A stretch of 64,000 bases of DNA from a bacterium. Its GTDB lineage: Bacteria > Patescibacteriota > Minisyncoccia > Minisyncoccales > CG1-02-41-26. Position 1 is the first letter of the stretch, and each line of letters begins with the position of its first letter. The notes beneath the pieces are model-generated. The model saw only the letters and a program-made list of their open reading frames with translations. It was not told the DNA's origin and made no database searches. The translations under genes were made by a program, and so were the position numbers. The DNA lies in the NCBI GenBank assembly GCA_030603395.1, contig JAUVXX010000001.1:29822-93821 (forward strand). Direction: 5' to 3'. Shown here in pieces: positions 3,320 to 19,590 of this stretch.

Positions 3320-3324
3320 AAAAA

Positions 3325-4227: not shown

Positions 4228-4254
4228 AGCTTTAATTATTTACTTTATTTTATT

Positions 4255-5352
4255 TTATTTAAATAGACGCCAGCACTGTGGATCTGGCAAAAACTGAGGC
4301 TCCTCCAGGTAGGTATCTTTCCAATAACTATAACTGACGCACTTTGCCCCTCCCCTACATTTATCAAAATAAGGGCAATCCTGACAGCGGATGTTTATGT
4401 TCTCGGGATTTCTTAGTTTTTTAAGCTCCCGGGAATTATAAAATATTTCTTCCAAGGACTGCTTTAGAACATTTCCCACGTAGATTGGCAGCCTTCGGCA
4501 GGGGTAAACATCCCCATTGGGCAGAATAGTCAAAGAAGAATATCCGGCCACGCAAGTGTTAGCCGGATAACTTTCCTGGGCTAAAATTCCGTCTTCGCAG
4601 CCTATTTCTAATCTTAATTTTGCTTTCTGCTCTTTTAATTTTTTCTGCGCTCTTAAAGTATAAAGGTACAGCTCTTTTGTTTCTCGGGGAGATAGCATTA
4701 ATTTTTTCATTTGTTTGCCCCTGCCCAAAGGAATAAATCTTCTTAAGCCCAAGCCATTTACTCCCAGATCTCTGGCTAATTGAATTATCTGGGGAACGTC
4801 CCCTAAATTCTGTCTGGTTATAGTCACGGAAATACTGGTGGGAATTTTGTTTTCAACCAGTAATTTTATCGCTTCTATTATTTTTCTAAAAGTTCCCCTG
4901 CCTCGAATTCCATCATTTTTCTCCTCTGTCCCCTCCAGGCTTACCTGGGCATAATCTATTTTTAGTTTTTTAAGTTTGGCTGTTTTTTCTTTATTGAGCA
5001 GAGTGCCGTTAATAAGAATTCCGTACCTGGTTTTCTTTCTATTTTGAAAACATTTCTCTAAAAATTTAAAGAAATCCGCTCTGACCATTGGCTCACCCCC
5101 GGTAATAGAGATTCTCGAGCTTTCACGGAGAAGCTTCCACTTCCTGACAAGCTTGACGTAGTCATTGAGAGTTTTGAAAAGCTGGCTCAAGGAAAGTTCA
5201 TTTTTAAGAAATTTCGGGTCAAAATAGCAGTGGCGGCAAGTCAAATTACACCTTTCGGTAATATGCCATTGGAGATGAAAAGAGGAAGGTTTGTATTCAG
5301 CAAACATTGTTTCTTCTCTTGAAATAATAACATCTCTCAATCTTTTTAACAA
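4255..5352 (-). CDS. Radical SAM enzyme with C-terminal SPASM domain
   Basis: It has CNLTCRHCYF and GGEP motifs. The C-terminus carries a Cys cluster CVAGY...CRRLP...CQDCPYFDKCRGGAKC, typical of SPASM auxiliary 4Fe-4S domains. Confidence 0.8.
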   Translation of the reverse strand: MLKRLRDVIISREETMFAEYKPSSFHLQWHITERCNLTCRHCYFDPKFLKNELSLSQLFKTLNDYVKLVRKWKLLRESSRISITGGEPMVRADFFKFLEKCFQNRKKTRYGILINGTLLNKEKTAKLKKLKIDYAQVSLEGTEEKNDGIRGRGTFRKIIEAIKLLVENKIPTSISVTITRQNLGDVPQIIQLARDLGVNGLGLRRFIPLGRGKQMKKLMLSPRETKELYLYTLRAQKKLKEQKAKLRLEIGCEDGILAQESYPANTCVAGYSSLTILPNGDVYPCRRLPIYVGNVLKQSLEEIFYNSRELKKLRNPENINIRCQDCPYFDKCRGGAKCVSYSYWKDTYLEEPQFLPDPQCWRLFK

Positions 5353-5436
5353 CTGTTATTGACAAATTTTTCTGAAGATGTATAATGAACTAAAAATAAA
5401 AAGCTCTTTAATAATTAGAGCGAAAGGAATAGCAAT

Positions 5437-6190
5437 GAAAAAGATTATAGGGATGATAGGAATTGTAGTAGTGATGATGCTTTTGGTGCTTTGTTTAGTG
5501 CCAAAAGCGGAAGCAAGAACAATAGGACTGTTGGTGGGTCCTAGTCTAAATCTTGAGGGACTAAATGATGTTCTTGGTGTCTTGAACAAAGAGCTAGGAG
5601 CGGATTTTAGCCTTAAAGAAGGACTAATGTATTCATTGGTCCTTAAGGGAGATTGGGTTACCCCGGTCTGGCGTAAAGGGATTGACTTCTCTGTTTGCCA
5701 GGCCAAGGCAGAAGACACTATCATGGGTTCCTGGGTTGGGAACCAAAGAGAGAAAATTGGGATTGAGATAGGAGTCTTGATTATGCCAATTTTTTTCACC
5801 AGAACATATGAGCCGAAAGGCAAGGGAAAAATATCGACTCGTCTGGGATTAGGGTTGGGAGGGGTTGTCACCCTCGTAAATATTTCCCAAGAAAAAACGA
5901 CTTTTTTTTGGGATCAGGATGGCAATCTTCAGGAGACAAAGCAAAGCTCAAGCAAAAGCCTGATTCTACCGTCTTTTGGTGTCCAGCTCTCAGCTGGACT
6001 TGAGTATAGGCTGGGAAAGAATGACGGGGAGTATGATTGGTCCAGAAAGAGAAAAAGTATTTTGCTGGAAGTAAGATATATTTCCAGCACGATAGAAATT
6101 CGAGACCCAGAGGCAAAACCCAATCCGATGGAAATTAGTGTCGAAATGAGTGAATTTTCTTTGAGGATGGGATTTATCACAGAGTTTTAA
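5437..6190 (+). CDS. Secreted beta-rich protein (signal peptide), function unknown
   Basis: The ORF track gives 5378..6190. An internal ATG at 5437 is preceded by a GAAAGGA ribosome-binding site and gives MKKIIGMIGIVVVMMLLVLCLVPKAEA, a signal peptide. The protein has an alternating hydrophobic pattern and ends in Phe. It is followed by terminator hairpins. Confidence 0.5.
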
Positions 6191-6197
6191 GAAAAAA

Positions 6198-6284
6198 ATT
6201 CTCCCCGACTTGGTTTAATCAAGCGGGGAGAATTTATATAGGTTTTAGTGATTTGTAACCCGTTAGATGAGAGTCCAACGGGTT
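6198..6284. terminator. Two stem-loops at the convergent junction between 5437..6190 (+) and 6298..6933 (-)
   Basis: The first inverted repeat is aattctccccg...cggggagaatt at 6198..6234, followed by TTTATATA. The second is aacccgtt...aacgggtt at 6257..6284, followed by TTTTAT. Confidence 0.5.
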
Positions 6285-6297
6285 TTATAATAGATTC

Positions 6298-6933
6298 TTA
6301 GTAAAAAAACTCATTCTCATTTAAATCTATTATCCCCGTTATAAATTCTATGGCAATTGTTTCTCCTATTAAATTCTTTAAAGGTTTGAAACATTTTCTC
6401 TCCTGGGTCCTGTCAACCCACTCTTGAGTGACTTCCTGTTCTTTTATGACCAGAGTAATTAAGTAATAATCGCCAGACAAGGGTTGCCAAACAAACATGT
6501 CAGAAGAATTTAGGGGAACCCGACAATCTTTTTCTGGAGATCTTACTGCCTCATCTATTATTTCAGCAATTTCAATATTGCAACTTCTTATTTGACCCAT
6601 AGAAACCTTTTCTTCCGGATAAAACTTGTCTAAATTAGCGGTCTGGTAAGCGGGACCGAACTCGCAAGAGATTTCACAGTCAGGCCACTTCTTAACAATA
6701 TGAACTAAGTTAATCAGGGAGTTTTCGTTTAATACCGAAGGTCCGAATGCTTCTCTAAGAGGTCCTGTATGATTAAAGATTATCTTATTAATTCTTTCGT
6801 TGCTGGTAATTCGTGGTATAATTTCAACTGAAGGTTCTCTCCGGGCAGAATAATAAATAAGCAATAGAGCAACTATGTCCACCACAAAGAAGATGCCCGC
6901 TATGAGTATTAAAATTTTAAGTTTTTTGCTCAT
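6298..6933 (-). CDS. Hypothetical protein with N-terminal membrane anchor
   Basis: It has an N-terminal TM segment (LKILILIAGIFFVVDIVALLLIYY) and no recognisable catalytic motif. Confidence 0.4.
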   Translation of the reverse strand: MSKKLKILILIAGIFFVVDIVALLLIYYSARREPSVEIIPRITSNERINKIIFNHTGPLREAFGPSVLNENSLINLVHIVKKWPDCEISCEFGPAYQTANLDKFYPEEKVSMGQIRSCNIEIAEIIDEAVRSPEKDCRVPLNSSDMFVWQPLSGDYYLITLVIKEQEVTQEWVDRTQERKCFKPLKNLIGETIAIEFITGIIDLNENEFFY

Positions 6934-6976
6934 ATTTTGAATATAAAGCTTTTTTGCCTTGTAACCTTTAAATAAA

Positions 6977-8458
6977 ATGATAACTTATTTCAGAGATATC
7001 CAGACAAAAAAACATAAAAAGATTGCCGCAGATTATCTTGAAAATAAATATTTTGTTTTTGAGATAGCGAAGACAAAATTTCTAATTACAACGAGGCATC
7101 GCTCTTGGGTTATTCTTTCTAAAAAAGAATATAAACTTCTTCTCAATCATAGGGTTCATCAGAACCCCAAGCTCTTTAAGATATTATCCGGACTCAATGT
7201 TATCTATATTAAAGATAACATATCAGAGGTAATTCAACAATACAAAAATAAATACCATTACCTAAGTCGTCCTCCGACGCTGAATATTATGGTGCCAACC
7301 TTGCGCTGTAATTTAAAATGTGATTACTGCCATTCTCTTTCCGGTCCAAATGTTAGAAAAAAAGATATGACTGAATCTTTAGTTAAAAAGACGATTGATT
7401 TTATTTTTACCATACCTCATCAGTCCAAAAAAGTTCATATAGAGTTTCAGGGAGGAGAACCGCTCTTAAGATGGGATATTGTAAAGTACAGTATAAAATA
7501 CGCAAAAGAAAAATCAAAAAAGATGAAATTTCGGCCTCCTTCTTTTTCTCTGACCACGAATCTCGCATTAATGAACGAGAAAATAGCAGAAGACATAGCC
7601 CGCTATAATTCAAATACAACCTCCTTTAAGATTAATATTTCTCTCGATGGCCCGGAAAAAATTCATGATTCTCAAAGGAAACATTGCGACGGAGAGGGAA
7701 GCTACAAAAAAGTTATTCACTGGCTTGATATTTTGAAGAAGAAATATAAAATCTCTCCCTCGGTGATATCGGTAATAACTCAAAACAGCTTAAATCACGA
7801 AAAAGAAATTATTGACGAATTAATAAAACATAATTTAAGGAACTTCAAATTTTTACCCGTTAGTTTAACGGGTAGACTCTACAATAAACATCAAGAAAAA
7901 AAAGATAATCTTTCTATTTCTCCTGAAGAATTTTTTAATTTTTGGAAGAACTCATTAGAATATATTTTAAAGTTAAATAAAAAAGGAATTAAAGTTAAAG
8001 AACAAATTACCCTTTTTCTTTTATCAAATATCTTGTCTTTAAGGGCAGATTATATGTGCGCAAGAAAACCCTGTGGAGCAGGCATTTCTCAGTTAGAGTT
8101 TGGTTGCGACGGAACAATTCATGCCTGCGACGGAGGAAAAAACATAAAAGAGTTGGAACTGGGCAATGTAAATACTCACCGCTACGAAGATATAACAATG
8201 TCAAAAATCGTTTCTCAATTAAGGTCCATCCGAAGCGAAAACTTACCCATCTGCTCTGATTGTCCCTGGGGCCCATATTGCGGGTATTGCGTCGCTCGAG
8301 GCATTAACCAACACGGCCAACTCAGACCCAAAATACCAGAGGACTATGACTGCCAATTATACAGCCGGATGATTCCTTATCTGTTTAGGGGATTTTTAGG
8401 TAAGGAACGAGCTCAAATTTTTTCTAAATGGGTTAACAATTTACTTGAGGGTTTTTGA
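6977..8458 (+). CDS. Radical SAM/SPASM enzyme with an N-terminal extension of about 110 aa (possible peptide-recognition domain)
   Basis: It has CNLKCDYCHS and GGEP motifs, and a C-terminal CGAGISQLEFGCDG...CSDCPWGPYCGYC, which matches an anaerobic-sulfatase-maturase-like SPASM domain. It is a paralog of 17972..19393. Confidence 0.8.
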   Translation: MITYFRDIQTKKHKKIAADYLENKYFVFEIAKTKFLITTRHRSWVILSKKEYKLLLNHRVHQNPKLFKILSGLNVIYIKDNISEVIQQYKNKYHYLSRPPTLNIMVPTLRCNLKCDYCHSLSGPNVRKKDMTESLVKKTIDFIFTIPHQSKKVHIEFQGGEPLLRWDIVKYSIKYAKEKSKKMKFRPPSFSLTTNLALMNEKIAEDIARYNSNTTSFKINISLDGPEKIHDSQRKHCDGEGSYKKVIHWLDILKKKYKISPSVISVITQNSLNHEKEIIDELIKHNLRNFKFLPVSLTGRLYNKHQEKKDNLSISPEEFFNFWKNSLEYILKLNKKGIKVKEQITLFLLSNILSLRADYMCARKPCGAGISQLEFGCDGTIHACDGGKNIKELELGNVNTHRYEDITMSKIVSQLRSIRSENLPICSDCPWGPYCGYCVARGINQHGQLRPKIPEDYDCQLYSRMIPYLFRGFLGKERAQIFSKWVNNLLEGF

Positions 8459-9395
8459 TTTGTAAGAATTTATAAACTAAGCAGCTGCCGTGACACTGTT
8501 TTCTCTTTTTAAAGAGACAATCTTTACATTCTGGGAATAAATCTATCTCCCACCTCAATTTGTCAAGGAGTTTTTTATAATAATCAATTATTTCTTTCTC
8601 GCTTTTGAAAGTATCTAAGGGAGGCCCCTCAATACCTAAGGCAATGCAGGGCAATAGTGTTTTGGCGGGTGTTATTGCATAACTACTTTTTCCGGCTCCG
8701 CAAATACCTCGCAGCCCGATATTTTTGATTAAAAATGCCCTTTCTTTTTCGGAAAAAAAACATAGAGGAAACGGTTCAGCAAGTTGACATTTGATATTTT
8801 GTCTTAACAAATCTTTTGTCAATTGTAAAATATATCTGGAAAAACCTTTTAAGTTCTCTTTTTTAATGTGCTCATTTTGATTAAAACTTGAAGGAAAAAC
8901 GGGAGTAAACTCTACATAATGAATGTCTAATTTTTTGCAGGCACCTATAATATAATTATAGGAAACATCAGGAGAAATAATATTAAACCTAAAGCCGAGG
9001 TTTTTGGTAATTTTTCTTATGTTTTTTAAATTAGAATATAGAGTTTCTAACTCTTGGGGGGAATATTCTGAGGGAGGGTTGAAATTAACCAAGAAGGAAA
9101 ATATAGCCGGAGATTCAATATTGATTTTTTTTATATCAAAGATTCCGTTGGTATAAAGCAGTATTTTCAAACCATACTTTTCAGCCAATTTTAAGGCAGA
9201 ATCTATTTTACTAAATAAAGTGGGCTCTCCTCCGTTAAAGCCAATCACCTCTTTGATTCCTTGCTTATTGAACCATTTGAAAACAGTTTCAAGTTTCTCT
9301 AAAGAAATTTCTCGGGGCCATTTTTTTAAAAATCCTTTGGCAAAACAATAACGACAATTTCTATTACAAAAATAACTAAGATTAATCTGTCTCAT
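8433..9395 (-). CDS. Radical SAM/SPASM enzyme
   Basis: It has CNRNCRYCFAKG, NGGEPT, and a C-terminal CGAGKSS...CIALG...CKDCLF...CHGSC. Its 3' end overlaps that of the convergent gene 6977..8458 by 26 nt. Confidence 0.75.
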   Translation of the reverse strand: MRQINLSYFCNRNCRYCFAKGFLKKWPREISLEKLETVFKWFNKQGIKEVIGFNGGEPTLFSKIDSALKLAEKYGLKILLYTNGIFDIKKINIESPAIFSFLVNFNPPSEYSPQELETLYSNLKNIRKITKNLGFRFNIISPDVSYNYIIGACKKLDIHYVEFTPVFPSSFNQNEHIKKENLKGFSRYILQLTKDLLRQNIKCQLAEPFPLCFFSEKERAFLIKNIGLRGICGAGKSSYAITPAKTLLPCIALGIEGPPLDTFKSEKEIIDYYKKLLDKLRWEIDLFPECKDCLFKKRKQCHGSCLVYKFLQIKNPQVNC

Positions 9396-9425: not shown

Positions 9426-11093
9426 TCAAAATGGAGTATAATATCCTTTAGCTTTTAAGATGAAGGAGATTTCTTGGTCAGAATTTATAATTTCTTTTTT
9501 TGCTGGAAATTCCAGGTTAATAAATTGTCCGGGGATTAATCCCACTCTTCCATCTTTTAAGTGCTTCTCATTAATATTCTTATCTTCCGAATGACTAAGA
9601 CTGGATAGCTTAATAGTTTCTTGTTTAATGTCAGGATTAGTCAATGGACTAGCATTTACCAGACCAATAAAGCTTAGATTGTGAGAGTTAGTCCATTTTA
9701 ATTTCAAAGATAATGGACTCTTTCTTTCTTTGGTACATTGAGAAATATCAACTAAGCCCGAGGAAAACTTCTCTCTTGGGTGGACGATGCTAAGCAACCC
9801 TTTTTTATTATTTCCGACATATACATCAACATATATATTAATACTTTTACATAAGTGGACTGCCGCAAAGGCATCTTCTGGCTTTATTACTTCCCCAGCA
9901 ACAGCTGTTCCCAGAGAAGCTATAGCTATTTTCTTTAGGGAGTCGGTCCATTTTCTTTCCGAGGAAAATATTCTTTCTAGGTTTCTGGTTGCTTCGGCAA
10001 TTCTTTGGTAATTTGCCCTAAGGTTAGCCCTGAAGACTAAGTGGCAATTTTCTAAATTTTGCACATTATCGAATTTCACATCTAAGACATCTTCTTTTTC
10101 TCCACCAAAAAATATTTCATCGTTCAAAGTAGATAACTTTTTTGTCCAGTCCCTTCCTTTTTTATTTCTAATTGAAGACGGGAAAATTAGATTTTTATAG
10201 GCAACTATTTTATTGTTTTCTATCCCGATACTAAATTTCTTTGGATGAATAATTTTAATAAGTTCAAGATTATAGAGATGAGAATGTTCTCTTTCAAACT
10301 CCATTACTCGCAAAAGATATTTCTTACTCTTTTGACAGGGCTTTACTTCTAATTTGTATAGTTCTTTAACAATAATGTTCTCCCTTAATATATTTTCAGA
10401 CGCCGGCAAAATATTATTATCAATAACAAATTTTTTGCCGTTCCAAACCATAATAAATGGGCAGCCACAACTACTGTGAGAAACGTGAGAACTGTGTGAG
10501 CTATGACTGCTGTGGCTGCCATGAGCACAACTACTATGGGAGCCGTGTGAACAGTGAGATTGGTGGGAACTGTGAGAGCTGTGTGAGGTGTGGGAACCGT
10601 GAGAAGAGTGGGAAGAGTGAGAGCTGTGAGAAGAGTGAGAACTATGTGAGGAGTGAGAACCGTGGGAACCGTGTGAGGAGTGAGAGGAGTGGGAACCATG
10701 AGAACCGTGAGAGGAGTGTGAGCCGTGGGAAGAGTGAGAACTGTGGGAGGAGTGGGAACTGTGAGAGCTGTGTGAGCCGTGGGAACCGTGTGAGGAGTGA
10801 GAGGAGTGGGAACCATGAGAACCGTGAGATGAATGGGAGCCGTGGGAGGAGTGAGAACCGTGGGAACTGTGAGATGAGTGAGAGCTATGGGAAGTGTGGG
10901 AGCTATGCGAAGAATGTGAGGTATGAGAGCACTCCCAATCAGCTTGAGCTTCACGAGCTACCATTGAGCCAGCAACAGCTGCTCCTAAGATAAAGAGCAT
11001 TGTTCCTGCTTTAACAATGTCTTTCTTGTTGACGTTGCCCTCTTCAGAGGTCAAGAAAGTCTTAATGTTCTTTTTTATTCGTGGAAAATTCAT
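9426..11093 (-). CDS. His-Xaa-Ser repeat protein (HxsA-like precursor) fused to a C-terminal domain of about 320 aa with unknown function
   Basis: The leader MNFPRIKKNIKTFLTSEEGNVNKKDIVKAGTMLFILGAAVAGSMVAREAQADW contains a hydrophobic TM/signal-like segment. It is followed by about 60 consecutive H-x-S triplets (SHSSHSSHGSH...), then CGCPF and a non-repetitive domain. The leader is nearly identical to that of 11887..12321. Confidence 0.75.
   Translation of the reverse strand: MNFPRIKKNIKTFLTSEEGNVNKKDIVKAGTMLFILGAAVAGSMVAREAQADWECSHTSHSSHSSHTSHSSHSSHSSHGSHSSHGSHSSHGSHGSHSSHSSHGSHGSHSSHSSHSSHSSHSSHGSHSSHGSHGSHSSHSSHGSHGSHSSHSSHSSHSSHSSHSSHGSHTSHSSHSSHQSHCSHGSHSSCAHGSHSSHSSHSSHVSHSSCGCPFIMVWNGKKFVIDNNILPASENILRENIIVKELYKLEVKPCQKSKKYLLRVMEFEREHSHLYNLELIKIIHPKKFSIGIENNKIVAYKNLIFPSSIRNKKGRDWTKKLSTLNDEIFFGGEKEDVLDVKFDNVQNLENCHLVFRANLRANYQRIAEATRNLERIFSSERKWTDSLKKIAIASLGTAVAGEVIKPEDAFAAVHLCKSINIYVDVYVGNNKKGLLSIVHPREKFSSGLVDISQCTKERKSPLSLKLKWTNSHNLSFIGLVNASPLTNPDIKQETIKLSSLSHSEDKNINEKHLKDGRVGLIPGQFINLEFPAKKEIINSDQEISFILKAKGYYTPF
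10390..10930 (-). repeat. Tandem 9-nt repeats that encode the His-Xaa-Ser units
   Basis: The units are of the type gtgagaaccgtgggaacc and repeat with 9-nt periodicity across roughly 540 nt. ORFs called on other frames or on the opposite strand in this stretch are artefacts of the repeat. Confidence 0.8.
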
Positions 11094-11896
11094 ATATTTG
11101 ACTGCTCAGCCCCTTTAAGGCAGCTCTGGTAAAGAAACTCTCCTCTTCCCTCTTCATCTTTGTAGGGAATCTCTTCACATAGCGAGGGGTCTTTGGTAAA
11201 CTCAGCTATCTGGGGAAGATAGATCTCTGAACATTCAACCTCACTGCGATATTTTACACATTCATTAATATCTAAGATGCCTCGGCAAAGAATTTGAGCC
11301 CCTCTTTTATAGCTTATTTTGTCACAAAGAGTTATGTCTTTTTTCAAAATAGCTAATAAATTATAGTAACTATCTTTACACTTTTGGATTTCTATTTCCG
11401 AAAGATTTTGGCATTCCTCTTCGTCTTCTCTGATTAGTGCTTTGCAAAGAATCTTTTCTTGTTGAGGAAGTTCTTCTTTTTCACAAAGAGTTTCGTCTTT
11501 TTTAAAAACGGCTTGGCAGAAAAATTCTTTCTCTCCCGCTTTTTGGCAATAATCTATGTTATTTTCCTTAAGTGCTCGGAAGGAATAAAAAAAATTTTCG
11601 CATTGCTCTTTCTCTTCTTGACTTAATGCCATGTCGCAAAAATAAACATTATGAACACCAATACAGTGAAAGGAAGATTTTTCTCCCAGGGTCCAATTAA
11701 TATCAATATTCCCCGCTAGATCTTCTAAATTTTGACATCGCTGGAAATTTTCTTCAAGAAGAGCCAATTGCTTTGCCCTCTCCCATCTTGGAATAAAAAT
11801 TAAAGTTCCCAAAATTATTACTGACAATAAGATAATTATAAGAATGATTTTAGTTTTTTTAGACATTTTTGCATTTTCAATTTTTACTAACACCAT
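11090..11896 (-). CDS. Membrane-anchored protein with repeated Cys pairs
   Basis: It has an N-terminal TM segment (KIILIIILLSVIILGTLIFI) followed by 7 or 8 repeated C-x(8-13)-C units, for example CQKAGEKEFFC, CEKEELPQQEKILC, CQNLSEIEIQKC, and CDKISYKRGAQILC. It lies between the two Hxs-like precursor genes and overlaps both by 4 to 10 nt. Confidence 0.5.
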   Translation of the reverse strand: MVLVKIENAKMSKKTKIILIIILLSVIILGTLIFIPRWERAKQLALLEENFQRCQNLEDLAGNIDINWTLGEKSSFHCIGVHNVYFCDMALSQEEKEQCENFFYSFRALKENNIDYCQKAGEKEFFCQAVFKKDETLCEKEELPQQEKILCKALIREDEEECQNLSEIEIQKCKDSYYNLLAILKKDITLCDKISYKRGAQILCRGILDINECVKYRSEVECSEIYLPQIAEFTKDPSLCEEIPYKDEEGRGEFLYQSCLKGAEQSNI

Positions 11897-12321
11897 GACC
11901 CGGAACTATGTGAAGAATGGGAGCTGTGGGAGGAATGGGAGCAGTGGGACTGATGAGAACCATGGCAAGAGCCGTGAGAGACATGGGAAGAGTGAGAAGA
12001 GTGAGAGGAGTGAGAACCGTGAGAGTTATGAGAGCTATGACCAGAAGCGTGAGAACCGTGGGAAGAGTGAGAGGAGTGAGAGGAGTGAGAGCCGTGGGAA
12101 GAGTGAGAGCTGTGTGAAGAATGCGAAGAATGAGAACCATGGGAAGTGTGCTCACATTGAGGCCATTGAGCTTGAACTTCTCTCACAGCCATTGAACCAG
12201 CAACAGCTGCTCCCAAGATAAGGAGCATTGTTCCTGCTCGGACAATGTCTTTCTTATTGACATTTCCTTCTTCAGAAGTCAGAAAGAATTTAATGTCTTT
12301 TTTTATTTTTGGAAAATTCAC
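11887..12321 (-). CDS. His-Xaa-Ser repeat precursor peptide (HxsA-like), short 144-aa form
   Basis: The leader MNFPKIKKDIKFFLTSEEGNVNKKDIVRAGTMLLILGAAVAGSMAVREVQAQW is conserved with 9426..11093. It is followed by about 30 H-x-S triplets and ends in SGSWC. Nucleotides 11890..12156 have a 9-nt repeat structure. Confidence 0.75.
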   Translation of the reverse strand: MNFPKIKKDIKFFLTSEEGNVNKKDIVRAGTMLLILGAAVAGSMAVREVQAQWPQCEHTSHGSHSSHSSHSSHSSHGSHSSHSSHSSHGSHASGHSSHNSHGSHSSHSSHSSHVSHGSCHGSHQSHCSHSSHSSHSSHSSGSWC

Positions 12322-12326: not shown

Positions 12327-12791
12327 TTACTCGGTAACCATCTTGGTGATTTTAGTAGCGGTAAATTCCTCAAGTTCGTTTATCTTCTCAAAAGTTGATT
12401 CAACTGTTGCTACAACAATGCTGTCATCTATTTCTATTTCCGAAAATTCCGAGGCAGATTCTTCTTGAGTGGTTATGTTGTAAATTCGCCACTCGGTCTC
12501 TTCGGTAAACTTTATGGTTTTTTCCATCAGGTCTTTCTCGGCTGTCTCAATCAGAGAGGTCCTGGCCTCTATCCTTAAAGTTTTACCTTCAATATCAACC
12601 GCTTTAACTCCTCCTTCAATAAGATTGTTGGGATATTGCTGCTGAGAAGGAGTTTCTTCTTCCGAAGTTTCCGGGGTTTCTTGTTCTTCTTCCTGGACGG
12701 GAGGGGCCTCTTGGCCCAACAAAAACACCCCCATTAAGACAACAACAGCAACAACGAAGAAGATAAGAACAATTTTTGTTTTTTTATCCAT
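12327..12791 (-). CDS. Small membrane-anchored protein, paralog of 20035..20409
   Basis: It has an N-terminal TM segment, an acidic linker, and then a domain that shares YPNNLIEG and TFEKINELEEFTATKITK with 20035..20409, which reads YPHNLIEG and STYEKVNELDQFTAIKISK. Confidence 0.5.
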   Translation of the reverse strand: MDKKTKIVLIFFVVAVVVLMGVFLLGQEAPPVQEEEQETPETSEEETPSQQQYPNNLIEGGVKAVDIEGKTLRIEARTSLIETAEKDLMEKTIKFTEETEWRIYNITTQEESASEFSEIEIDDSIVVATVESTFEKINELEEFTATKITKMVTE

Positions 12792-12874: not shown

Positions 12875-13795
12875 CTACCTGAAATAAATGCCTAAGTTTC
12901 TATTTTCTAAAGCAAAATAACTTATCTTTGCTTCAACATCTTTTATAATTTTAAATGATTCTTTGAGCCATAATTTCTGTTTGGGAAAGTTTTGTTTAAG
13001 TATATTTAACCTTTTAGGAGCAACGCTTTCTTTTAACCGAAACCAGAGCTTTGTTGAGGAAATATCAGAGCTCGGAGAGATACGGCAAAGCATTCCTGTT
13101 TCTTTAACTAGCATGTTTCTTAAAGCTGAAAGAACCGGTTGATAGACTTTTCCTACCTCTTTAGGATTTGGCAGGCCTTTACAGATTAAAGGATAAATCT
13201 TAAGAAAACATTCTCCCCTTGGCAAAAAATCAATCCCCACTGTATCAAAGTCCTTATTCTTAAATGTTTTTTCTAATTTATCTGCTTTAAGGTTTAAAAT
13301 ACAGCTCAGCTTTTTTATAAGCTCTTGAACCTTTTTTCTTTGAAGCTTCAATCCATCGGGGCTGGTAAAATATATCTTTACTCTTTCTATTTTGCTTTGG
13401 GCTAAATCTATGCCAAACTGCACCATCCAGGAATGACTTTTGGCTATTGATAATATGGGTTTAATTTTGTCATTGAATTTGCAGCTTGAATTGTTTAAAG
13501 AAACAAAGATTTTAGCGATACAATCTATTCGTTTTTTCCTTAATTTTTCTTTCTGAGCTAAACTTAAGAATTCTTTCAGAAAATTAAGATGGAGAATCCT
13601 TATTTTTTTCTGACCAGAAACCAAAGAGAACTCAAAACCATTGTAGAGATTTGATTTTAACTCACTGCCCCTTTCTAACTCGTCTATAATTTCAAAAATC
13701 AGCTTATTGGGATTAAATCCCCATCTTTGAGACAACAATCCGATTAATTGTTTTGCTTGAGAATTGTTCATTTTATCCGTAAAAATTTTACTCAA
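12875..13795 (-). CDS. Hypothetical protein of about 300 aa, paralog of 14716..15576, placed directly after an rSAM gene
   Basis: It shares GFEFSL and GFSLKL motifs and a conserved C-terminus (ENRNLGIYFR versus ENDNLILYIRF) with 14716..15576. It overlaps the upstream rSAM gene by 8 nt. Confidence 0.5.
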   Translation of the reverse strand: MSKIFTDKMNNSQAKQLIGLLSQRWGFNPNKLIFEIIDELERGSELKSNLYNGFEFSLVSGQKKIRILHLNFLKEFLSLAQKEKLRKKRIDCIAKIFVSLNNSSCKFNDKIKPILSIAKSHSWMVQFGIDLAQSKIERVKIYFTSPDGLKLQRKKVQELIKKLSCILNLKADKLEKTFKNKDFDTVGIDFLPRGECFLKIYPLICKGLPNPKEVGKVYQPVLSALRNMLVKETGMLCRISPSSDISSTKLWFRLKESVAPKRLNILKQNFPKQKLWLKESFKIIKDVEAKISYFALENRNLGIYFR

Positions 13796-14759
13796 AAATA
13801 TAAGATTTGGTTTTTTTTATATATTCCTGGAAGAGGCTTCGGCTTTTAGCGTTTTCCTTTAAAATTTGGGCTATTTTTTGGGAGGTATTATTGCGCAACT
13901 TGATTATATTTTTATCAAAATGAATGTCAGGGTAAAAATCAAAACACGACGAAGCTCTTTTGCCCGAAACGCTTATTTCAACATTTTTCCTTAAATCCTC
14001 TTTTTTGTTCAGAATTCGGCTTACGGAATTCAAAAAGATAAATCTTTTGTTTTTTATTTCTCTTACAATATAGTCAGAGATTTTGTTTAAGCAAGAAAGG
14101 AAATCTTTTCTTTCTTTTTCTTCCCAGGTTACTGTCTGAATTGGCTCAATGTTTATGCTCTTAAATCCCGTTTTTATTAAATAAATAAAATTTTCATGCA
14201 TTTTTTTAACCTCTGAAGGATGAACGGCCATCAGGGCACAAACATTTTCTTCCTTCAGGTTTTTAAAGACCGCTGGCAACTTTTTTATTATCTGAGAAAA
14301 TGAACTTCTGCCATTTTTAAATACCCGGAATCTATCGTGAGTTTCTTTTTTCCCGTCAATACTTACGGCTAATTTGACATTATATTTCTGAAAAAACTTG
14401 AGGTGTTCTTTTCTAATTAAAGTGCCGTTAGTGGCTACAGATACAGCTAATTGCTTATTTTTTTGCCTGACTAAAGATTGAGCAAAAATGATTATCTTTT
14501 TTAGTAAATCAAAATAAAGCAAGGGTTCTCCGCCATATAAAAGAAGCTGTTTTTCTTTTCCCGGAGATAAAATAAGATTTCTTACTGCTTGCTTGGCTTT
14601 TTCAAAGGGTATAATCTCATTGGTTTTTTTAATAAAACAATACCGACACCTCATATTGCAGCGAGTGCCAACAAAAAGCCACGTCTTTTTAATTTCCCTA
14701 TCTAGGCTCATCTTTTTAAAAACGGATGTAGAGAATAAGATTGTCATTTTCTGCATCAA
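13788..14759 (-). CDS. Radical SAM enzyme without a SPASM-type Cys cluster
   Basis: It has CNMRCRYCF, YGGEP, and ATNGTLIRKEH...SIDGKKETHDRFRVFKN, which is paralogous to the core of 16980..17987. Confidence 0.75.
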   Translation of the reverse strand: MMQKMTILFSTSVFKKMSLDREIKKTWLFVGTRCNMRCRYCFIKKTNEIIPFEKAKQAVRNLILSPGKEKQLLLYGGEPLLYFDLLKKIIIFAQSLVRQKNKQLAVSVATNGTLIRKEHLKFFQKYNVKLAVSIDGKKETHDRFRVFKNGRSSFSQIIKKLPAVFKNLKEENVCALMAVHPSEVKKMHENFIYLIKTGFKSINIEPIQTVTWEEKERKDFLSCLNKISDYIVREIKNKRFIFLNSVSRILNKKEDLRKNVEISVSGKRASSCFDFYPDIHFDKNIIKLRNNTSQKIAQILKENAKSRSLFQEYIKKTKSYIFE

Positions 14760-15576
14760 TTACGTGAATTTTTCCCTTGGCGCTTTTGATGAGAGTTAAG
14801 ATTTCCCTTAAACAGTTAGTATTGCCGCTTAAACTCAGAAGTTTCTCTAGCGTTTCTTTTTTTAATCCATTTTTCAACTGAACTCCGAATTTTCTGGAAA
14901 TAAGCTTGTTCCCCTGATATCTTTCGCCAAAATGATAATGAGAACTGATTGGTTTTAAAAAAGTGAAGATTTTTCGCTCAAGAGAAGAGGGCCCTCCTTT
15001 ATCTTGACATTTTTCCTCTAAAAAATGGGTAAGGTAATAAATTTTATATTTCGGTTTTGGCTCCTGGTCAATATCAAAACCCATTATGACAATCTTTTCC
15101 TTTTTGAGAGGAATGTTTATTTTAAATTGTTCAAGGATGCTTTTTACCGCAGAACGCACTGTCTTAGAGTCATTGATATCGCCGAAATGTAGATAAACTT
15201 TAAATCTTATTTTTTTCTTTTTTGTCTCCAAGCCAAAATAAAGCGAGGGTTTGATTTTATTTAATTTTCTGAGCTTGTGAAATAATAATTTTGAAACATT
15301 AGATTTGCCGTAAGAATTAATGATACCCTCTATCAATTCTATTCTCTCAGTATACAAATTTTCAAAGTTCTTGGAATAAGTATCGTAGTTGACCAATCTT
15401 AAGGTATCCTCAATCTTTCCTTTTTTTAATTTAAGAGAAAATCCGAATTCAGTTTTGTTTGCTAAATCGCCTTTCACTAATTTCTTAATGACAGGGCTTA
15501 TAATCTCCCGGGTGGACGCATCGGGGAGTAACTTTTTTGCTAAATAAGAAAACGTTTCAGATATGTTTTTTTCCAT
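14716..15576 (-). CDS. Hypothetical protein of about 286 aa, paralog of 12875..13795
   Basis: See 12875..13795. It lies 4 nt downstream of the HemN-like rSAM gene. Confidence 0.5.
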   Translation of the reverse strand: MEKNISETFSYLAKKLLPDASTREIISPVIKKLVKGDLANKTEFGFSLKLKKGKIEDTLRLVNYDTYSKNFENLYTERIELIEGIINSYGKSNVSKLLFHKLRKLNKIKPSLYFGLETKKKKIRFKVYLHFGDINDSKTVRSAVKSILEQFKINIPLKKEKIVIMGFDIDQEPKPKYKIYYLTHFLEEKCQDKGGPSSLERKIFTFLKPISSHYHFGERYQGNKLISRKFGVQLKNGLKKETLEKLLSLSGNTNCLREILTLIKSAKGKIHVIDAENDNLILYIRF

Positions 15577-15580
15577 AAGT

Positions 15581-16975
15581 TCACAAAGGAATATATTTTA
15601 ATTCTTCATCCCCAATAATCTTTTTTTTATTTTTTACCGGTTTTATTTTCTTTTGGCATTTTTTAACTATTTCCTCAGAATAAAAATATTTAGAAAAAAC
15701 CAAATAAGCGCCGAAATTAGGAACTTTAGATTGAAGATGAGTCGGTCTTGCGATTATTTTTCCTCTTTTTACCAAATATTCAATTTCTTCTTTCAAAACT
15801 TTGTCTATGTCTTGACCAAAAAGCTGGTAAATCCTTTTTTTGGGAAGAAGATTGTACCTGAGAGAATTTATAACGTACCATTTTATCTCTTCAATTTTAT
15901 TTTTATATCTGCATTGAAGATAAACCGGGCTTTCATTCTGCCGAATGCCTCTTTCGTATTTTTCTAAATCGGGAAAGTTCATATAATTTCCCCAACCGGA
16001 AATATGCGACATAGCCGCCATTCCCAATCCCAAGAAAGGACTGTTATATTCAACCGTGTCAGCTATCTGAATATTTCGGGCTTCATTGCTTTTACCTATG
16101 TCTTCAAACTGTAAAAACTTATAGGAAGAGTCAAGAAGCATTTTGCGGCCCAAAGCGTTCATTTCCTCTCTCTTTTGCATTTCTTCCCGCGACAGGACTT
16201 TTCCCTGCTGGGAGAAGGAAGTAGCCGGATTGGGAAAGAAGGGATTAACGTGAACCACATCCGGTGAAAGCTTAATTACTTTCTTCATTGTCTCTTTAAA
16301 GCTTTTGAGCGTTTGGCCGGGCAAGCCGCACATTATATCAAAGTTTATGTATTTAATGCCGGCTCGCCGCGCCCGCTGATAAGCTTTGTAAACCGATTTC
16401 TCAGACGATAAACGTCCCCACTTTTTCATTAATTTATCATCAAAGCTCTGTACTCCCATATTAAGCCGGCTGACTTTATATCTCTTTAATAATTTCAATT
16501 TTTTCCAAGAAAGAGTACTGGGATTTGCTTCAAAAACCACCTGAATGCATTTCTTAAAATCAAAATGGTTATAGATAAGTTCAAAAAATTTTTCAAGCTG
16601 AGTCGGGCTTAAAAGAGAGGGGGTGCCCCCGCCAACATAAAGTGAACGAAAAGAGACGGATTTAAAAATCTTTGAATACAATTTCACTTCCCTGGCAAGC
16701 AGGTTTAAGTAATTGTCTATTTGGCTGTGATTTTTAAGCTTTTGAGCCGGGAACCGGCAAAAAATACACCTTGAAGCACAGAAAGGAAGGTGAACGTACA
16801 TTCCCACCTTATCTACGCCTCTATTTATTGTTCTTTTCCAGGCAGTTTTTATCTCTTCCTGGTTGGCTTTATGCCAAACAAAAATTGGGGGGTAATAAAA
16901 GGGGAAACCAACAAAGTCAGTCTGGGATATTTTTTCAGTGATTGCTCGGAAGAGCCAATCTTTATCTTTAATCAT
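15581..16975 (-). CDS. HemN/HemW-family radical SAM enzyme (coproporphyrinogen-III-oxidase-like; possible class C rSAM methyltransferase)
   Basis: It has YVHLPFCASRCIFCRF (the YxHxPFCxxxCxFCxF signature), GGGTPS, and MGVQSF motifs, which are typical of the HemN family. Confidence 0.8.
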   Translation of the reverse strand: MIKDKDWLFRAITEKISQTDFVGFPFYYPPIFVWHKANQEEIKTAWKRTINRGVDKVGMYVHLPFCASRCIFCRFPAQKLKNHSQIDNYLNLLAREVKLYSKIFKSVSFRSLYVGGGTPSLLSPTQLEKFFELIYNHFDFKKCIQVVFEANPSTLSWKKLKLLKRYKVSRLNMGVQSFDDKLMKKWGRLSSEKSVYKAYQRARRAGIKYINFDIMCGLPGQTLKSFKETMKKVIKLSPDVVHVNPFFPNPATSFSQQGKVLSREEMQKREEMNALGRKMLLDSSYKFLQFEDIGKSNEARNIQIADTVEYNSPFLGLGMAAMSHISGWGNYMNFPDLEKYERGIRQNESPVYLQCRYKNKIEEIKWYVINSLRYNLLPKKRIYQLFGQDIDKVLKEEIEYLVKRGKIIARPTHLQSKVPNFGAYLVFSKYFYSEEIVKKCQKKIKPVKNKKKIIGDEELKYIPL

Positions 16976-16979
16976 AGCC

Positions 16980-17987
16980 TTAATCTGCCCTGGTTATCTT
17001 TAAAAAATTAGATATGTAAATTTTTGAGATTTCACAGAAGGTCTGGAAATGTTTTTTAAAATCTTTTTTGTTCTCTTGAGACCAAAGATATAAACCAATT
17101 GGACAGAAGCAGTATTCCTGACAAGGACATTTTGAGCATTTGCTGTCTGTTATTTTAAGAATCCCCTTTTTTGCCTTTCTTAACAAGTTTTCTCTTTTTG
17201 CTTTATCAATTCCTCCTCCTCTGCCAACTATGTATTTTTTTCTCCTTTTATCAAAAAAAGAAAATACTTTATCGCAAAGATAAAAATTTCCATCAGGACC
17301 TAAATTCAGCTGCTGGCAGCAGAAATTCTCGCTGTTTTTCTCAAGGCCTTTTGTTATGCTAAACTCGCTAAAAGTTTTTTTAAGGATATTGAGCTGATTT
17401 TTTGACCATAAACCGTAAACCTCTGGATAAAAATCTATTAAGCGAAATCCGTTTTCAACAAAGAACTTAATGTTTTCAGTAAGGTGGTTTACTGTTGAGG
17501 GAGTAAAGATCAGAGAGATTTTAATTTTTTCTTTATTTAAATTTTTGATATTTTTCCAGACCGTTTTGAAGACCGAACGTTCTTTATCATTTTTAAATAC
17601 TCTGTTGACGTCATTTACATCTTGCTTACCGTCTAAACTTATTGAGAGGCCGACGTTGTTCTCGGCTAAAAATTCACTTCTTTCTTTGTTGAGCAAGGTG
17701 CCGTTGCTGGAGAGCACAATAAAAGCCCTCTTTTTTTCGTTCCTTTTCAAATATTCTATCAATTCTTTTAATTCCCCCCAATAAAGCAAGGGTTCTCCGC
17801 CGGTAAAATTAATGGTCGGCTCTTTTATTGAGTGTTTCAAAAAAAAGCTGATTCCCCTTTTTAATTCGGGAACATTGGGGATAATCTTTTTCAAATTCTC
17901 TTTGTCAATAAAACAATAGCTGCAATCAAGATTGCAGCCACCTCCAAGAAAAATAGATAAAGAATGGTATTTTATTTGCTGAGCCAT
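16980..17987 (-). CDS. Radical SAM enzyme with a C-terminal Cys-rich (SPASM-like) region
   Basis: It has GGGCNLDCSYCF, TGGEP, and a C-terminal CSKCPCQEYCFCP. Confidence 0.75.
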   Translation of the reverse strand: MAQQIKYHSLSIFLGGGCNLDCSYCFIDKENLKKIIPNVPELKRGISFFLKHSIKEPTINFTGGEPLLYWGELKELIEYLKRNEKKRAFIVLSSNGTLLNKERSEFLAENNVGLSISLDGKQDVNDVNRVFKNDKERSVFKTVWKNIKNLNKEKIKISLIFTPSTVNHLTENIKFFVENGFRLIDFYPEVYGLWSKNQLNILKKTFSEFSITKGLEKNSENFCCQQLNLGPDGNFYLCDKVFSFFDKRRKKYIVGRGGGIDKAKRENLLRKAKKGILKITDSKCSKCPCQEYCFCPIGLYLWSQENKKDFKKHFQTFCEISKIYISNFLKITRAD

Positions 17988-19393: not shown

Positions 19394-19590
19394 TGTTTCA
19401 TCATAGCTAAAACATAATTACAAAATTCATCTTCAATTTTTCTCTTGGCGGTCGGTACTATATTCTCTAACTTTACGGTGATTACTTTTTTATTCTGACT
19501 TATTTTAAAATCTGCCAGCCCTTGATAGGCCTGGCTGGCTTTTTCGACAGTTTTAAGGTTATAGAAATTTTTGTTAAACCTTATCGTCAT
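19390..19590 (-). CDS. Small protein (66 aa) translationally coupled to the downstream rSAM/SPASM gene
   Basis: It overlaps the downstream gene by 4 nt (ATGA). It could be an accessory or chaperone-like (HxsD-like?) component, but this assignment is speculative. Confidence 0.35.
   Translation of the reverse strand: MTIRFNKNFYNLKTVEKASQAYQGLADFKISQNKKVITVKLENIVPTAKRKIEDEFCNYVLAMMKQ

What the first reader, a model, noticed from the sequence alone, without database searches (positions are those of the whole stretch)
9426..12321. Two Hxs-like precursor paralogs with the same leader but different lengths, one short (144 aa) and one fused to a large C-terminal domain
Both proteins start with MNFP(R/K)IKK.IK.FLTSEEGNVNKKDIV.AGTML.ILGAAVAGSM..RE.QA.W, followed by a Cys and then the H-x-S array. 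The leader has a basic N-terminus and a hydrophobic core. It could be a Sec signal or signal-anchor, or a leader recognised by the maturases.

The long copy carries about twice as many repeats and continues into a non-repetitive domain of about 320 aa after a CGCPF junction. The short copy ends in SGSWC. The Cys residues flanking the repeat block (W-E-C at the start and HSSCGC or GSWC at the end) are candidate cross-link sites.

The repeats are encoded by near-perfect 9-nt DNA repeats, so the repeat number is likely to vary.
Basis: seen in the sequence. Interest (0 to 1): 0.8.

Follow-up and report, generated by a model that had tools for sequence, protein, structure and literature searches.

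The report
Paired His-Ser repeat proteins, radical-SAM cluster
Two neighbouring genes in a candidate-phyla-radiation-type bacterium encode secreted proteins made mostly of His-x-Ser repeats, a catalogued substrate class of a radical-SAM maturation system recently shown in E. coli to block phage DNA entry; the longer one is fused to a widespread, unnamed extracellular domain.

Summary
Minus-strand ORFs 9426-11093 (555 aa, 50 HxS) and 11887-12321 (144 aa, 27 HxS) share an 80%-identical leader. The frame is confirmed by homologs.

Both pass the NCBIfam HxsA4 cut-off. They sit in a 20-kb cluster with HxsB, HxsD, an HxsD-like protein and 10 further radical-SAM enzymes. This is a member or variant of a catalogued family, not a new kind.

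- **Leader:** it looks bipartite. A conserved N-terminal motif (P-x-I-K-K-x-I-x-x-F-L-x-x-E-E-G) is followed by a variable hydrophobic stretch and a small-x-Ala cleavage site. I read this as maturase docking plus Sec export.
- **C-terminal part (residues 211-555):** a two-beta-sandwich module with CBM-like fold. About 785 protein clusters carry it, mostly secreted multidomain proteins. It always begins Gly-Cys-Pro, and no Pfam or NCBIfam model covers it.
- **Relatives:** they carry one fused copy, or two short copies, or short copies only. Repeat counts run from 0 to at least 149.
- **Wrong claim:** the "near-perfect 9-nt repeats" do not exist. Units are 64-68% identical and codon-scrambled.

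The biological role (envelope defence, as in E. coli HXS, or metal binding) is inferred, not shown.

The parts
9426..11093 (-). Long HxsA-type protein (555 aa): leader, 50 HxS repeats and a C-terminal module
   Evidence: ORF. NCBIfam HxsA4 79 bits (cut-off 55) and HxsA3 71.7 bits (cut-off 65). Public gene call P0001 starts only at M215, giving 341 aa.
10926..11093 (-). Leader of the long copy (residues 1-56). It holds the conserved n-region motif, a hydrophobic stretch at residues 29-46, the putative signal-peptidase site AQA51|D52, and then W-E-C55.
   Evidence: The cleavage site is read by the -3/-1 rule and has not been run through a predictor.
10470..10925 (-). H-x-S array of the long copy (residues 57-208; x = S, G or T; no Lys or Arg)
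9429..10463 (-). C-terminal module (residues 211-555): two beta-sandwiches joined by a helical hairpin, starting at the invariant C211-P212-F213
11887..12321 (-). Short HxsA-type protein (144 aa, GTG start): leader, 27 HxS repeats and a G-S-W-C tail
   Evidence: HxsA4 60.3 bits (cut-off 55) and HxsA3 63.4 bits (below cut-off 65). Orthologs in L010, L011 and L014.
11090..11896 (-). Membrane-anchored all-helical protein with 16 invariant Cys. It overlaps both HxsA genes, by 10 nt and by 4 nt.
   Evidence: It always follows the W-C-ending short HxsA in L010, L011 and L014. The fold search was uninformative.
12327..12791 (-). 154-aa single-pass membrane protein immediately upstream of the HxsA genes; a paralog lies at 20035-20409
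   Evidence: Conserved upstream of HxsA in L002/L003, L010, L011, L012, L013 and L016.
17972..19393 (-). HxsB radical SAM/SPASM maturase
   Evidence: TIGR03978 531.8 bits against a 370 cut-off. The closest solved relative is CteB, 5wgg. A homolog is present in 65 of 79 leader-bearing loci.
19390..20028 (-). HxsD-like protein (19390-19590) and HxsD (19597-20028)
   Evidence: NF038315 72.5 bits against 41. TIGR03976 71.9 bits against 50.
12875..17987 (-). Five-gene block absent from the syntenic relative L002/L003: a radical SAM enzyme (335 aa), a HemN-like radical SAM enzyme (464 aa), an unknown protein (286 aa), a radical SAM enzyme (323 aa) and an unknown protein (306 aa). I read it as the tailoring set that travels with the short HxsA.
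   Evidence: L014 has HxsB, short HxsA, the Cys-rich protein, the 335-type radical SAM enzyme and the 286-type unknown in a row. L010 has the 306-type unknown upstream.
572..9395 (.). Downstream part of the cluster: a radical SAM enzyme (320 aa, 8433-9395), an HxsB-like radical SAM/SPASM enzyme on the + strand (6977-8458), an unknown protein (211 aa, 6298-6933), a radical SAM/SPASM enzyme (4255-5352) and four HxsC-like radical SAM paralogs (572-4227)
   Evidence: Orthologs sit next to the fused HxsA in L001-L007 and L009.

Best explanation
Both genes encode HxsA3/HxsA4-class substrates of a His-Xaa-Ser radical-SAM maturation system.

Proposed mechanism (steps 2-5 inferred):
1. The genes are co-transcribed and translationally coupled within a cluster holding 11 radical-SAM genes.
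2. The shared leader is bipartite. Its conserved N-terminal motif (K/R-[ILF]-P-x-I-K-K-x-I-x-x-F-L-x-x-E-E-G-x-[IV]-x-K-K) docks the cytoplasmic maturases HxsB, HxsD and HxsD-like, so both paralogs enter the same pathway.
3. Radical-SAM enzymes modify residues in the His/Ser array before export. The short copy has extra tailoring enzymes of its own.
4. The hydrophobic stretch and the A/V-x-A site then drive Sec export and signal-peptidase cleavage (after A51 in both).
5. Outside the cell, the long form is a 150-residue modified His/Ser polymer tethered to a double beta-sandwich binding module. This is the functional counterpart of the peptidoglycan-binding domain of E. coli HxsA. The short form lacks the tether and probably associates, through its Trp-Cys end, with the 16-Cys membrane protein encoded between the two genes.

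The most likely role is an envelope-located layer, either a barrier to phage DNA entry as in E. coli HXS or a metal-loaded His matrix. The role is the least certain step.
For: **Shown**
- Family membership by curated HMM cut-offs for HxsA4, HxsB, HxsD and HxsD-like.
- Gene overlaps and gaps of -10, -4, 5 and 30 nt.
- The leader motif is conserved in proteins that were found through their C-terminal module only, so the sample is unbiased with respect to the leader (P0019, P0032, P0033, P0037, L004, L006, L007). The hydrophobic stretch, by contrast, varies.
- 15 of 17 leaders have A or G at -1 and A, V or T at -3 a few residues after the hydrophobic stretch.
- HxsB homologs are present in 65 of 79 leader-bearing loci, and HxsD in 43.
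- The module co-occurs with secreted-protein domains: papain C1+CARDB, subtilase S8+PKD, PPC, and a T9SS sorting tail. Its fold is CBM/discoidin-like.
- The triad short HxsA / Cys-rich protein / second HxsA is conserved in L010 and L011. The cassette short HxsA / Cys-rich protein / radical SAM enzyme / unknown protein is conserved in L014.

**Precedent**
- E. coli HxsA needs its signal peptide and its peptidoglycan-binding domain. It is processed and modified (+8 Da in an HxS repeat) in an HxsB/C/D-dependent way, and it acts in the periplasm (PMC13128918).
Against: - No signal-peptide or transmembrane predictor could be run. The 18-residue hydrophobic stretch with charged R-E before the AQA could instead be an uncleaved signal anchor.
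- No true HxsC is present. The four paralogs score 75-123 bits against a cut-off of 268.
- The arrays contain no Lys or Arg, unlike the basic-residue-rich E. coli repeats, so the electrostatic DNA-binding model may not transfer.
- This lineage probably has no outer membrane and therefore no periplasm.
- No modification chemistry is known.
- The Cys-rich partner has no informative structural match.
- PADLOC gives no defence-specific hit.
Confidence: 0.6

Rival explanations
1. Classical RiPP natural product. The leader is only a maturase-recognition sequence. A protease removes it, and a small modified peptide (a bacteriocin or metallophore) is released, mainly from the short copy.
For: - The cluster is dense in radical SAM/SPASM enzymes.
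- Short stand-alone precursors are the majority form: 41 of 55 complete ORFs.
- L010 has a CPBP/Rce1-like protease and methyltransferases downstream.
- L008 links a short precursor to AMP-binding and PKS genes.
Against: - Arrays of 80-150 residues are far longer than usual cores.
- The same leader drives a protein fused to a 345-aa folded extracellular module.
- The leader contains a Sec-like hydrophobic stretch with a small-x-A site.
- No leader peptidase or ABC exporter was detected in the window cluster.
- The E. coli homolog acts as a protein, not as a peptide.
Confidence: 0.15
2. Uncleaved signal anchor. The hydrophobic stretch is a transmembrane helix, so both proteins are N-in/C-out membrane proteins that display the His/Ser array on the cell surface.
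For: In the window clade the hydrophobic stretch is 17-18 residues long (Kyte-Doolittle mean 1.7 over 19 residues) and is followed by charged R-E.
Against: More distant homologs have hydrophobic stretches of only 10-13 residues followed by T-A-S-A or T-T-S-A, which is typical of cleaved signals. The long form already carries a separate candidate anchoring module.
Confidence: 0.2
3. The array is mainly a metal-binding (Zn, Ni or Cu) His-rich sponge or a flexible spacer, and the radical-SAM neighbours act on something else.
For: The array is 33% His and 53% Ser and has no charged x residues. Repeat number is very plastic, from 0 to at least 149.
Against: The leader-bearing HxS protein is coupled to HxsB in 65 of 79 loci. 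In E. coli, HxsB/C/D act on HxsA and a modification was mapped inside an HxS repeat. Metal binding and radical-SAM modification are not mutually exclusive.
Confidence: 0.15

Closest known systems
E. coli HXS antiphage system, HxsA/B/C/D (Li et al., Nat Commun 2026, PMC13128918; predicted by Haft & Basu 2011, as cited in PMC9062424)
   Same: - An HxS-repeat protein with an N-terminal export signal and a C-terminal non-repeat domain.
- HxsB and HxsD are encoded upstream in the order D-B-...-A.
- Maturation is expected before export.
   Different: - 50 and 27 repeats instead of 5.
- x is S, G or T rather than basic residues.
- No hit to canonical HxsA, and no peptidoglycan-binding domain; a double beta-sandwich module or nothing takes its place.
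- No true HxsC.
- An extra HxsD-like protein.
- 11 radical-SAM genes, two substrates, and a host of candidate-phyla-radiation type.
NCBIfam in-silico families HxsA4 (NF038313), HxsA3 (NF038309), HxsD-like (NF038315), HxsC4 (NF038332)
   Same: Both window proteins pass the HxsA4 cut-off, and the long one also passes HxsA3. The HxsD-like protein passes its cut-off.
   Different: - The four HxsC-like paralogs reach only 130-179 bits against a cut-off of 500 for HxsC4.
- The models cover only the leader and the first repeats (81-93 positions). They say nothing about the module, the paired arrangement or the Cys-rich partner.
SPASM-type peptide maturases such as CteB (SCIFF thioether synthase, PDB 5wgg)
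   Same: This is the best solved relative of the window HxsB (E 2e-18, core plus SPASM). HxsB has about 85 extra N-terminal residues where CteB carries its leader-binding domain; the CteB domain position is my own knowledge.
   Different: The substrate is a long repeat protein with an export signal. The chemistry is unknown.
CBM32/CBM35/CBM6/discoidin-type galactose-binding-like beta-sandwich modules
   Different: - 3-13% sequence identity, with no Pfam hit.
- Foldseek finds nothing at E<=0.001.
- The module is a fixed pair of sandwiches with its own invariant residues: G-C-P start, N226, E265/E267/E269, H283, R440, H471, H501 and G-x-Y at the end.

Membership tests
NCBIfam HxsA4 / HxsA3 (His-Xaa-Ser repeat protein) | HMM score at or above the curated cut-off | tested here: met
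   Long copy: A4 79.0 against 55 and A3 71.7 against 65. Short copy: A4 60.3 against 55 (met) and A3 63.4 against 65 (just below).
NCBIfam HxsA4 / HxsA3 (His-Xaa-Ser repeat protein) | Conserved leader followed by tandem H-x-S, encoded next to HxsB and HxsD | tested here: met
   HxsB, HxsD and HxsD-like lie in the same strand run. HxsB is present in 65 of 79 related loci.
Canonical HXS system (HxsABCD) | HxsB (TIGR03978) present | tested here: met
   531.8 bits against 370. A second HxsB-like gene at 6977-8458 scores 302, below the cut-off.
Canonical HXS system (HxsABCD) | HxsC (TIGR03977) present next to HxsB | tested here: not met
   The best of the four paralogs scores 122.5 bits against 267.9. 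HxsC4 scores at most 178.8 against 500. They lie 13-18 kb from HxsB.
Canonical HXS system (HxsABCD) | HxsD (TIGR03976) present | tested here: met
   71.9 bits against 50
Canonical HXS system (HxsABCD) | HxsA of the canonical type: about 5 basic HxS repeats plus a peptidoglycan-binding domain | tested here: not met
   Only the A3 and A4 models (plus weak collagen-like adhesin matches) hit at E<=0.01. There is no Pfam domain. The arrays have 50 and 27 repeats and no Lys or Arg.
Canonical HXS system (HxsABCD) | Radical-SAM-dependent processing and modification of HxsA, and antiphage activity | not testable with these tools
   Needs expression, mass spectrometry and phage assays. PADLOC 2023 has no specific model.
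Sec (type I) signal peptide | Basic n-region, hydrophobic h-region, and small residues at -3 and -1 | tested here: inconclusive
   Met by inspection in 15 of 17 leaders. No SignalP or transmembrane predictor was available. The n-region is unusually long (about 28 aa) and conserved.
RiPP precursor (leader plus small core) | Leader peptidase and/or exporter in the cluster; short core | tested here: not met
   No peptidase or ABC transporter hit among the cluster proteins. The cores are 83-150 residues or fused to a 345-aa domain.
Carbohydrate-binding module families (CBM32/35/6) | Sequence-family membership and a sugar or Ca site | tested here: not met
   There is fold resemblance only. No Pfam or NCBIfam hit. 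Binding was not tested.
Hint/intein-like autoprocessing domain | Nucleophile Cys or Ser as first residue, and the Hint fold | tested here: not met

The most novel reading that the evidence does not exclude
The C-terminal module would be a previously unrecognised autoprocessing or covalent-attachment domain. Its almost invariant Gly|Cys-Pro start comes after poly-Gly/Pro linkers, and the Cys is replaced only by Ser. That start would be a cleavage or ligation site that releases the passenger, or covalently anchors it to the envelope. The passenger here is the radical-SAM-modified His/Ser polymer; elsewhere it is a protease, PKD domains and so on. In that case the long and short paralogs would yield similar mature polymers by two routes, and about 800 protein clusters from uncultured bacteria and archaea would share a new surface-display mechanism.
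Probability: 0.1. Interest if true: 0.8.

Novelty: new variant of a known kind. Interest (0 to 1): 0.5.

Why it matters
The His-Xaa-Ser system was assigned a function only in 2026 (E. coli, blocking phage DNA entry), and that study found 99.7% of HXS systems in Pseudomonadota.

This locus, together with about 80 related metagenomic loci, shows a divergent branch in uncultured small-genome bacteria. In that branch:
- the arrays are 5-30 times longer;
- a different anchoring module is used;
- more than one substrate can be encoded per locus (8 loci, counting the window);
- in this window the cluster holds 11 radical-SAM enzymes.

The branch offers natural variants for working out what the radical-SAM enzymes do to His and Ser.

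The work also exposes a large uncharacterised extracellular domain family. And it shows that automated annotation systematically mis-calls these genes, through truncated starts, antisense ORFs and contig breaks inside the array, so the family is under-counted.

Tried and rejected
- **AFDB Foldseek:** the library was not available.
- **Locus search with alignment A1:** it has no conserved stretch usable for locus finding. The single-protein scan of genome contigs returned one locus only.
- **Exact look-up of P0001:** it found no contig.
- **Sequence search of the module profile against the PDB:** only coiled-coil noise.
- **Foldseek against the PDB:** nothing at E<=0.001.
- **The 306-aa and 286-aa unknown proteins:** no PDB, Pfam or NCBIfam match. 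They are only weakly alike (24% identity, E 0.06). I wondered whether they might be prenyltransferase-like barrels, but that rests on nothing tested and is dropped.
- **Promoter and terminator scans:** at chance level (32 found against 29.8 expected, and 12 against 10.9).
- **PADLOC:** only generic viperin-type radical-SAM hits.
- **Stand-alone C-terminal domain proteins (280-340 aa):** I considered whether these are real and rejected it. They are truncated gene calls or contig ends.
- **Repeat arrays in other frames:** I considered whether they code there and rejected it. The ORFs at 10385-10954, 10457-10993 and 11844-12221 are repeat artefacts.
Full report
**1. What is there**

The minus strand carries two ORFs at the stated coordinates.
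- The long protein (9426-11093, 555 aa) has a 56-residue leader and 50 H-x-S units at residues 57-208. Forty-four units are in register, followed by a Cys-Ala insertion and six more. The junction C209-G-C211-P-F comes next, then 345 non-repetitive residues.
- The short protein (11887-12321, 144 aa) starts at a GTG that aligns with the ATG of the long gene. It has the same leader, 27 H-x-S units and the tail G-S-W-C.
- The leaders are 80% identical as protein (E 6e-30) and about 85% identical as DNA.

The genes are packed tightly with their neighbours:
- a 5-nt gap after the 154-aa membrane protein gene;
- a 10-nt overlap between the short gene and a 268-aa gene;
- a 4-nt overlap between that gene and the long gene;
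- a 30-nt gap before the next radical-SAM gene.

**2. Frame and DNA repeats**

The frame is correct. In homologs from at least 14 other loci the conserved leader, the array and the conserved C-terminal domain lie in one ORF.

Within the array, His is written with 2 codons and Ser with 6, while the amino-acid period is kept. That is the signature of selection on the protein.

- TRF reports 66-67% matches at period 9.
- The 44 in-register units comprise 25 different 9-mers, with 68% mean identity.
- What does exist is a recent 117-nt duplication of 13 units: 87% over 2.3 copies, with a 53-nt exact repeat.

**3. Family**

- Both proteins match NCBIfam HxsA4. The long one scores 79 bits and the short one 60.3, against a cut-off of 55.
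- Both also match HxsA3. The long one scores 71.7 and the short one 63.4, against a cut-off of 65.
- The same strand run contains HxsD (71.9 against 50), an HxsD-like protein (72.5 against 41) and HxsB (531.8 against 370).
- The cluster (572-20028) holds 11 radical-SAM genes in all. They include a second HxsB-like gene, a HemN-like one and four HxsC-like paralogs. The paralogs stay far below the HxsC and HxsC4 cut-offs.
- Flanking genes are bacterial housekeeping genes: ClpP, trigger factor, PNPase and DksA.
- Named relatives are called Candidatus Nealsonbacteria, and a type IV secretion pilin-like gene is present. I therefore take the host to be a candidate-phyla-radiation bacterium.

**4. 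Leader**

I aligned 17 leaders, including those from proteins found only through their C-terminal domain.
- K7, F13, L14, E17 and E18 are invariant.
- P4, K8, I10, G19 and K23 are at least 90% conserved.
- The following hydrophobic stretch is conserved only in character.
- Four to nine residues after it, 15 of the 17 have A or G at -1 and A, V or T at -3. Examples are AQA|D, VQA|Q, ASA|V, TSA|Q and VDA|I.

This fits von Heijne's rule for signal peptidase I, which is established knowledge and was not run through a predictor here.

I read the leader as bipartite: a specific cytoplasmic recognition motif in front of a generic Sec signal. HxsB has about 85 residues ahead of its radical-SAM core. 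Its closest solved relative, CteB (5wgg), has a leader-binding domain at that position; this is my own knowledge and was not tested.

**5. C-terminal domain**

- It has 20 close homologs, all without names or Pfam domains. The apparently stand-alone ones are artefacts:
  - this window's own public protein (P0001) was called from Met215;
  - L004, L006 and L007 encode full 509-, 601- and 521-aa fusions;
  - L004 has an assembly gap inside the array;
  - in L006 and L007 antisense ORFs were called across the array.
- The AlphaFold model (pLDDT 78, pTM 0.79) shows two beta-sandwiches joined by a poorly predicted helical hairpin.
- Foldseek and sequence searches of the PDB give nothing significant.
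- An exhaustive profile search found 785 cluster representatives at E<=1e-3, and 412 at E<=1e-10.
- In those proteins the module follows papain C1+CARDB, subtilase S8+PKD, PPC, CUB/fn3 or pilin+M15 peptidase domains. In one case a T9SS sorting tail follows it. It is therefore an extracellular module.
- It begins almost always with Gly-Cys-Pro-[FY]-x3-W-[ND]-G...[DE]-N-N-[IL]-[LM]-P-x-S-E after a poly-Gly/Pro linker.
  - The residue before the Cys is Gly in 78 of 103 cases.
  - By my count about 114 of 119 full-length members have the Cys, 3 have Ser and 1 has Tyr.
- Across the broad family N226, E265/267/269, H283, F341, R440, H471, H501, G550 and Y552 are also at least 90% conserved.
- No Pfam or NCBIfam model covers the module.

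**6. Comparative picture**

*Loci found through the module*
- L001, L002/L003, L004, L006, L007 and L009 show the order HxsD, HxsD-like, HxsB, then a small membrane protein or a SPASM enzyme, then one fused HxsA, then radical-SAM genes.
- L002/L003 is the relative with preserved flanking synteny. It lacks the short HxsA, the 268-aa gene and the five genes at 12875-17987.

*Closest relatives*
- L010 and L011 are 84% and 82% identical at DNA level.
- They have the same triad: short HxsA (32 or 33 units, ending SGSWC), the Cys-rich protein, and a second HxsA (41 or 42 units).
- Their second copy stops at "...YCPKF". A different radical-SAM gene follows, and in L010 (the longer contig) also a CPBP protease and methyltransferases.
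- Collinearity with the window ends inside the array.
- Because more distant relatives all have the fusion, I infer that L010 and L011 lost the module.

*A second cassette*
- L014 has HxsB, a W-C-ending short HxsA, the Cys-rich protein, a radical-SAM enzyme of the 16980-17987 type and an unknown protein of the 14716-15576 type in a row.
- The window cluster therefore looks like two cassettes interleaved. The short copy appears to bring its own tailoring genes.

*Leader-based metagenome scan*
- The scan added 68 loci.
- Among 80 leader-bearing ORFs, 14 are complete fusions, 41 are complete short forms of 76-255 aa, and 25 run off a contig end.
- H-x-S/T unit counts range from 0 to 55 in complete ORFs and reach at least 149 in L072.
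- Short forms end in Y, W or F in 27 of 41 cases and in W-C in 4.
- Seven loci besides the window have two leader ORFs.
- A short copy paired with a fused copy was seen only in the window, but many of the contigs are short.

**7. The partner gene**

- The 268-aa protein has an N-terminal transmembrane helix and an all-helical domain.
- It contains 16 Cys, all invariant in six homologs.
- There is no informative structural match.
- It accompanies the W-C-ending short HxsA in all four loci where that form was seen. I infer a physical partnership through a disulfide or a shared metal. This was not tested.

**8. Comparison with what is known**

- Haft and Basu predicted the system in 2011, as cited in PMC9062424.
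- Li et al. 2026 (PMC13128918) showed the following in E. coli:
  - HxsA has a signal peptide, five basic HxS repeats and a peptidoglycan-binding domain.
  - It is processed and modified (+8 Da within SHRSS) in an HxsB/C/D-dependent way.
  - It acts in the periplasm and blocks phage DNA entry.
  - 99.7% of the systems they found are in Pseudomonadota.
- The window system shares the architectural logic: export signal, HxS array and a non-repeat domain, with D-B upstream.
- It differs in these respects:
  - array length;
  - array composition, with no Lys or Arg;
  - the anchoring domain;
  - the lack of a true HxsC;
  - the extra HxsD-like protein;
  - the number of radical-SAM enzymes;
  - having two substrates.
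- I file it as a variant of a known kind. It is already captured at the leader level by NCBIfam HxsA3 and HxsA4, but I found no paper that describes it.

**9. Verdict**

The DNA-repeat claim is wrong.

The mechanism I favour is a bipartite leader, cytoplasmic radical-SAM modification, Sec export, and then tethering to the surface through the module (long copy) or the Cys-rich partner (short copy). It rests on conservation and on the E. coli precedent, and I give it confidence 0.6. The final biological role, defence or metal handling, is open.

Noticed in passing
window 9429-10463 (-); P0025-P0169: The C-terminal module belongs to a large unnamed family: 785 cluster representatives, attached to secreted proteases, PKD, CARDB and T9SS-tailed proteins. 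Its start is almost invariant, Gly-Cys-Pro-[FY]...W-[ND]-G...NN[IL][LM]P-x-SE, after poly-Gly/Pro linkers. Cys is replaced by Ser in 3 members. No Pfam or NCBIfam model covers it.
   Followed up: partly
window 9426-11093; L004 9443-10972; L006 9059-10870; L007 9257-10837: Automated annotation mis-calls these genes. The window's own public protein starts at Met215 (341 aa). Antisense ORFs were called across the arrays in L006 and L007. L004 has an N-gap inside the array. 25 of 80 leader-bearing ORFs end at a contig break. Repeat counts from short-read assemblies are therefore unreliable.
   Followed up: yes
window 572-20028: The cluster holds eleven radical-SAM genes. It looks like two interleaved cassettes. 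One is the HxsD/D'/B, fused HxsA and downstream set, as in L002. The other is the short HxsA, Cys-rich protein and 12875-17987 set, as in L014 and L010.
   Followed up: partly
L010 3061-3639; L011 1510-2199; L030 5974-6639: In close relatives the second HxsA ends at '...(S/N)LYCPKF*', just where the module would begin. This looks like a remnant of a deleted fusion. In L010 and L011 the downstream genes differ from the window's: another radical SAM enzyme in both, and in L010 also a CPBP protease, two methyltransferases and another Cys-rich protein. Downstream of L030 was not examined.
   Followed up: partly
L012-L079: Stand-alone short HxsA3/4 proteins mostly end in an aromatic residue (Y, W or F in 27 of 41) or in Trp-Cys (4 of 41). 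Among the loci examined (window, L010, L011, L014), the Trp-Cys enders are followed by the 16-Cys membrane protein.
   Followed up: partly
L072 5164-6684: An ORF with the same leader carries at least 149 H-A-S units and still runs off the contig end.
   Followed up: no
L008 4181-10441: A 79-aa HxsA-type precursor directly after HxsB is followed by AMP-binding/PP-binding, acyltransferase and ketosynthase genes. This may be a hybrid pathway.
   Followed up: no
L007 9257-10837; P0032; P0033: Some fused homologs have Cys- or Gln-rich variants of the array (H-S-Q runs, S-S-C-H, H-G-S-C-H-S-N) instead of H-S-S / H-G-S.
   Followed up: no
window 12875-13795 and 14716-15576 (-): Two unknown proteins (306 and 286 aa) are weakly alike over their full length (24% identity, E 0.06). 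They have no Pfam, NCBIfam or PDB match. Each sits next to a radical-SAM gene.
   Followed up: partly
window 12327-12791 and 20035-20409 (-): Two paralogous small membrane proteins flank the Hxs core. The first is conserved directly upstream of HxsA in seven related loci.
   Followed up: partly
window 43946-55780 (-): A 3944-aa ORF with bacterial Ig and cadherin-like domains. It is probably a giant surface protein.
   Followed up: no
window 29538-35818: Four tRNA genes (Lys-CTT, Arg-TCG, Pro-CGG, Ala-CGC) and a type IV secretion pilin-like small protein at 29613-30203.
   Followed up: no
L005 (CAYNWY010000058.1): A 5-kb contig with a 77%-identical module and the same downstream genes is labelled Candidatus Woesearchaeota archaeon. 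The syntenic genes elsewhere are bacterial, so this may be a binning or classification error.
   Followed up: no
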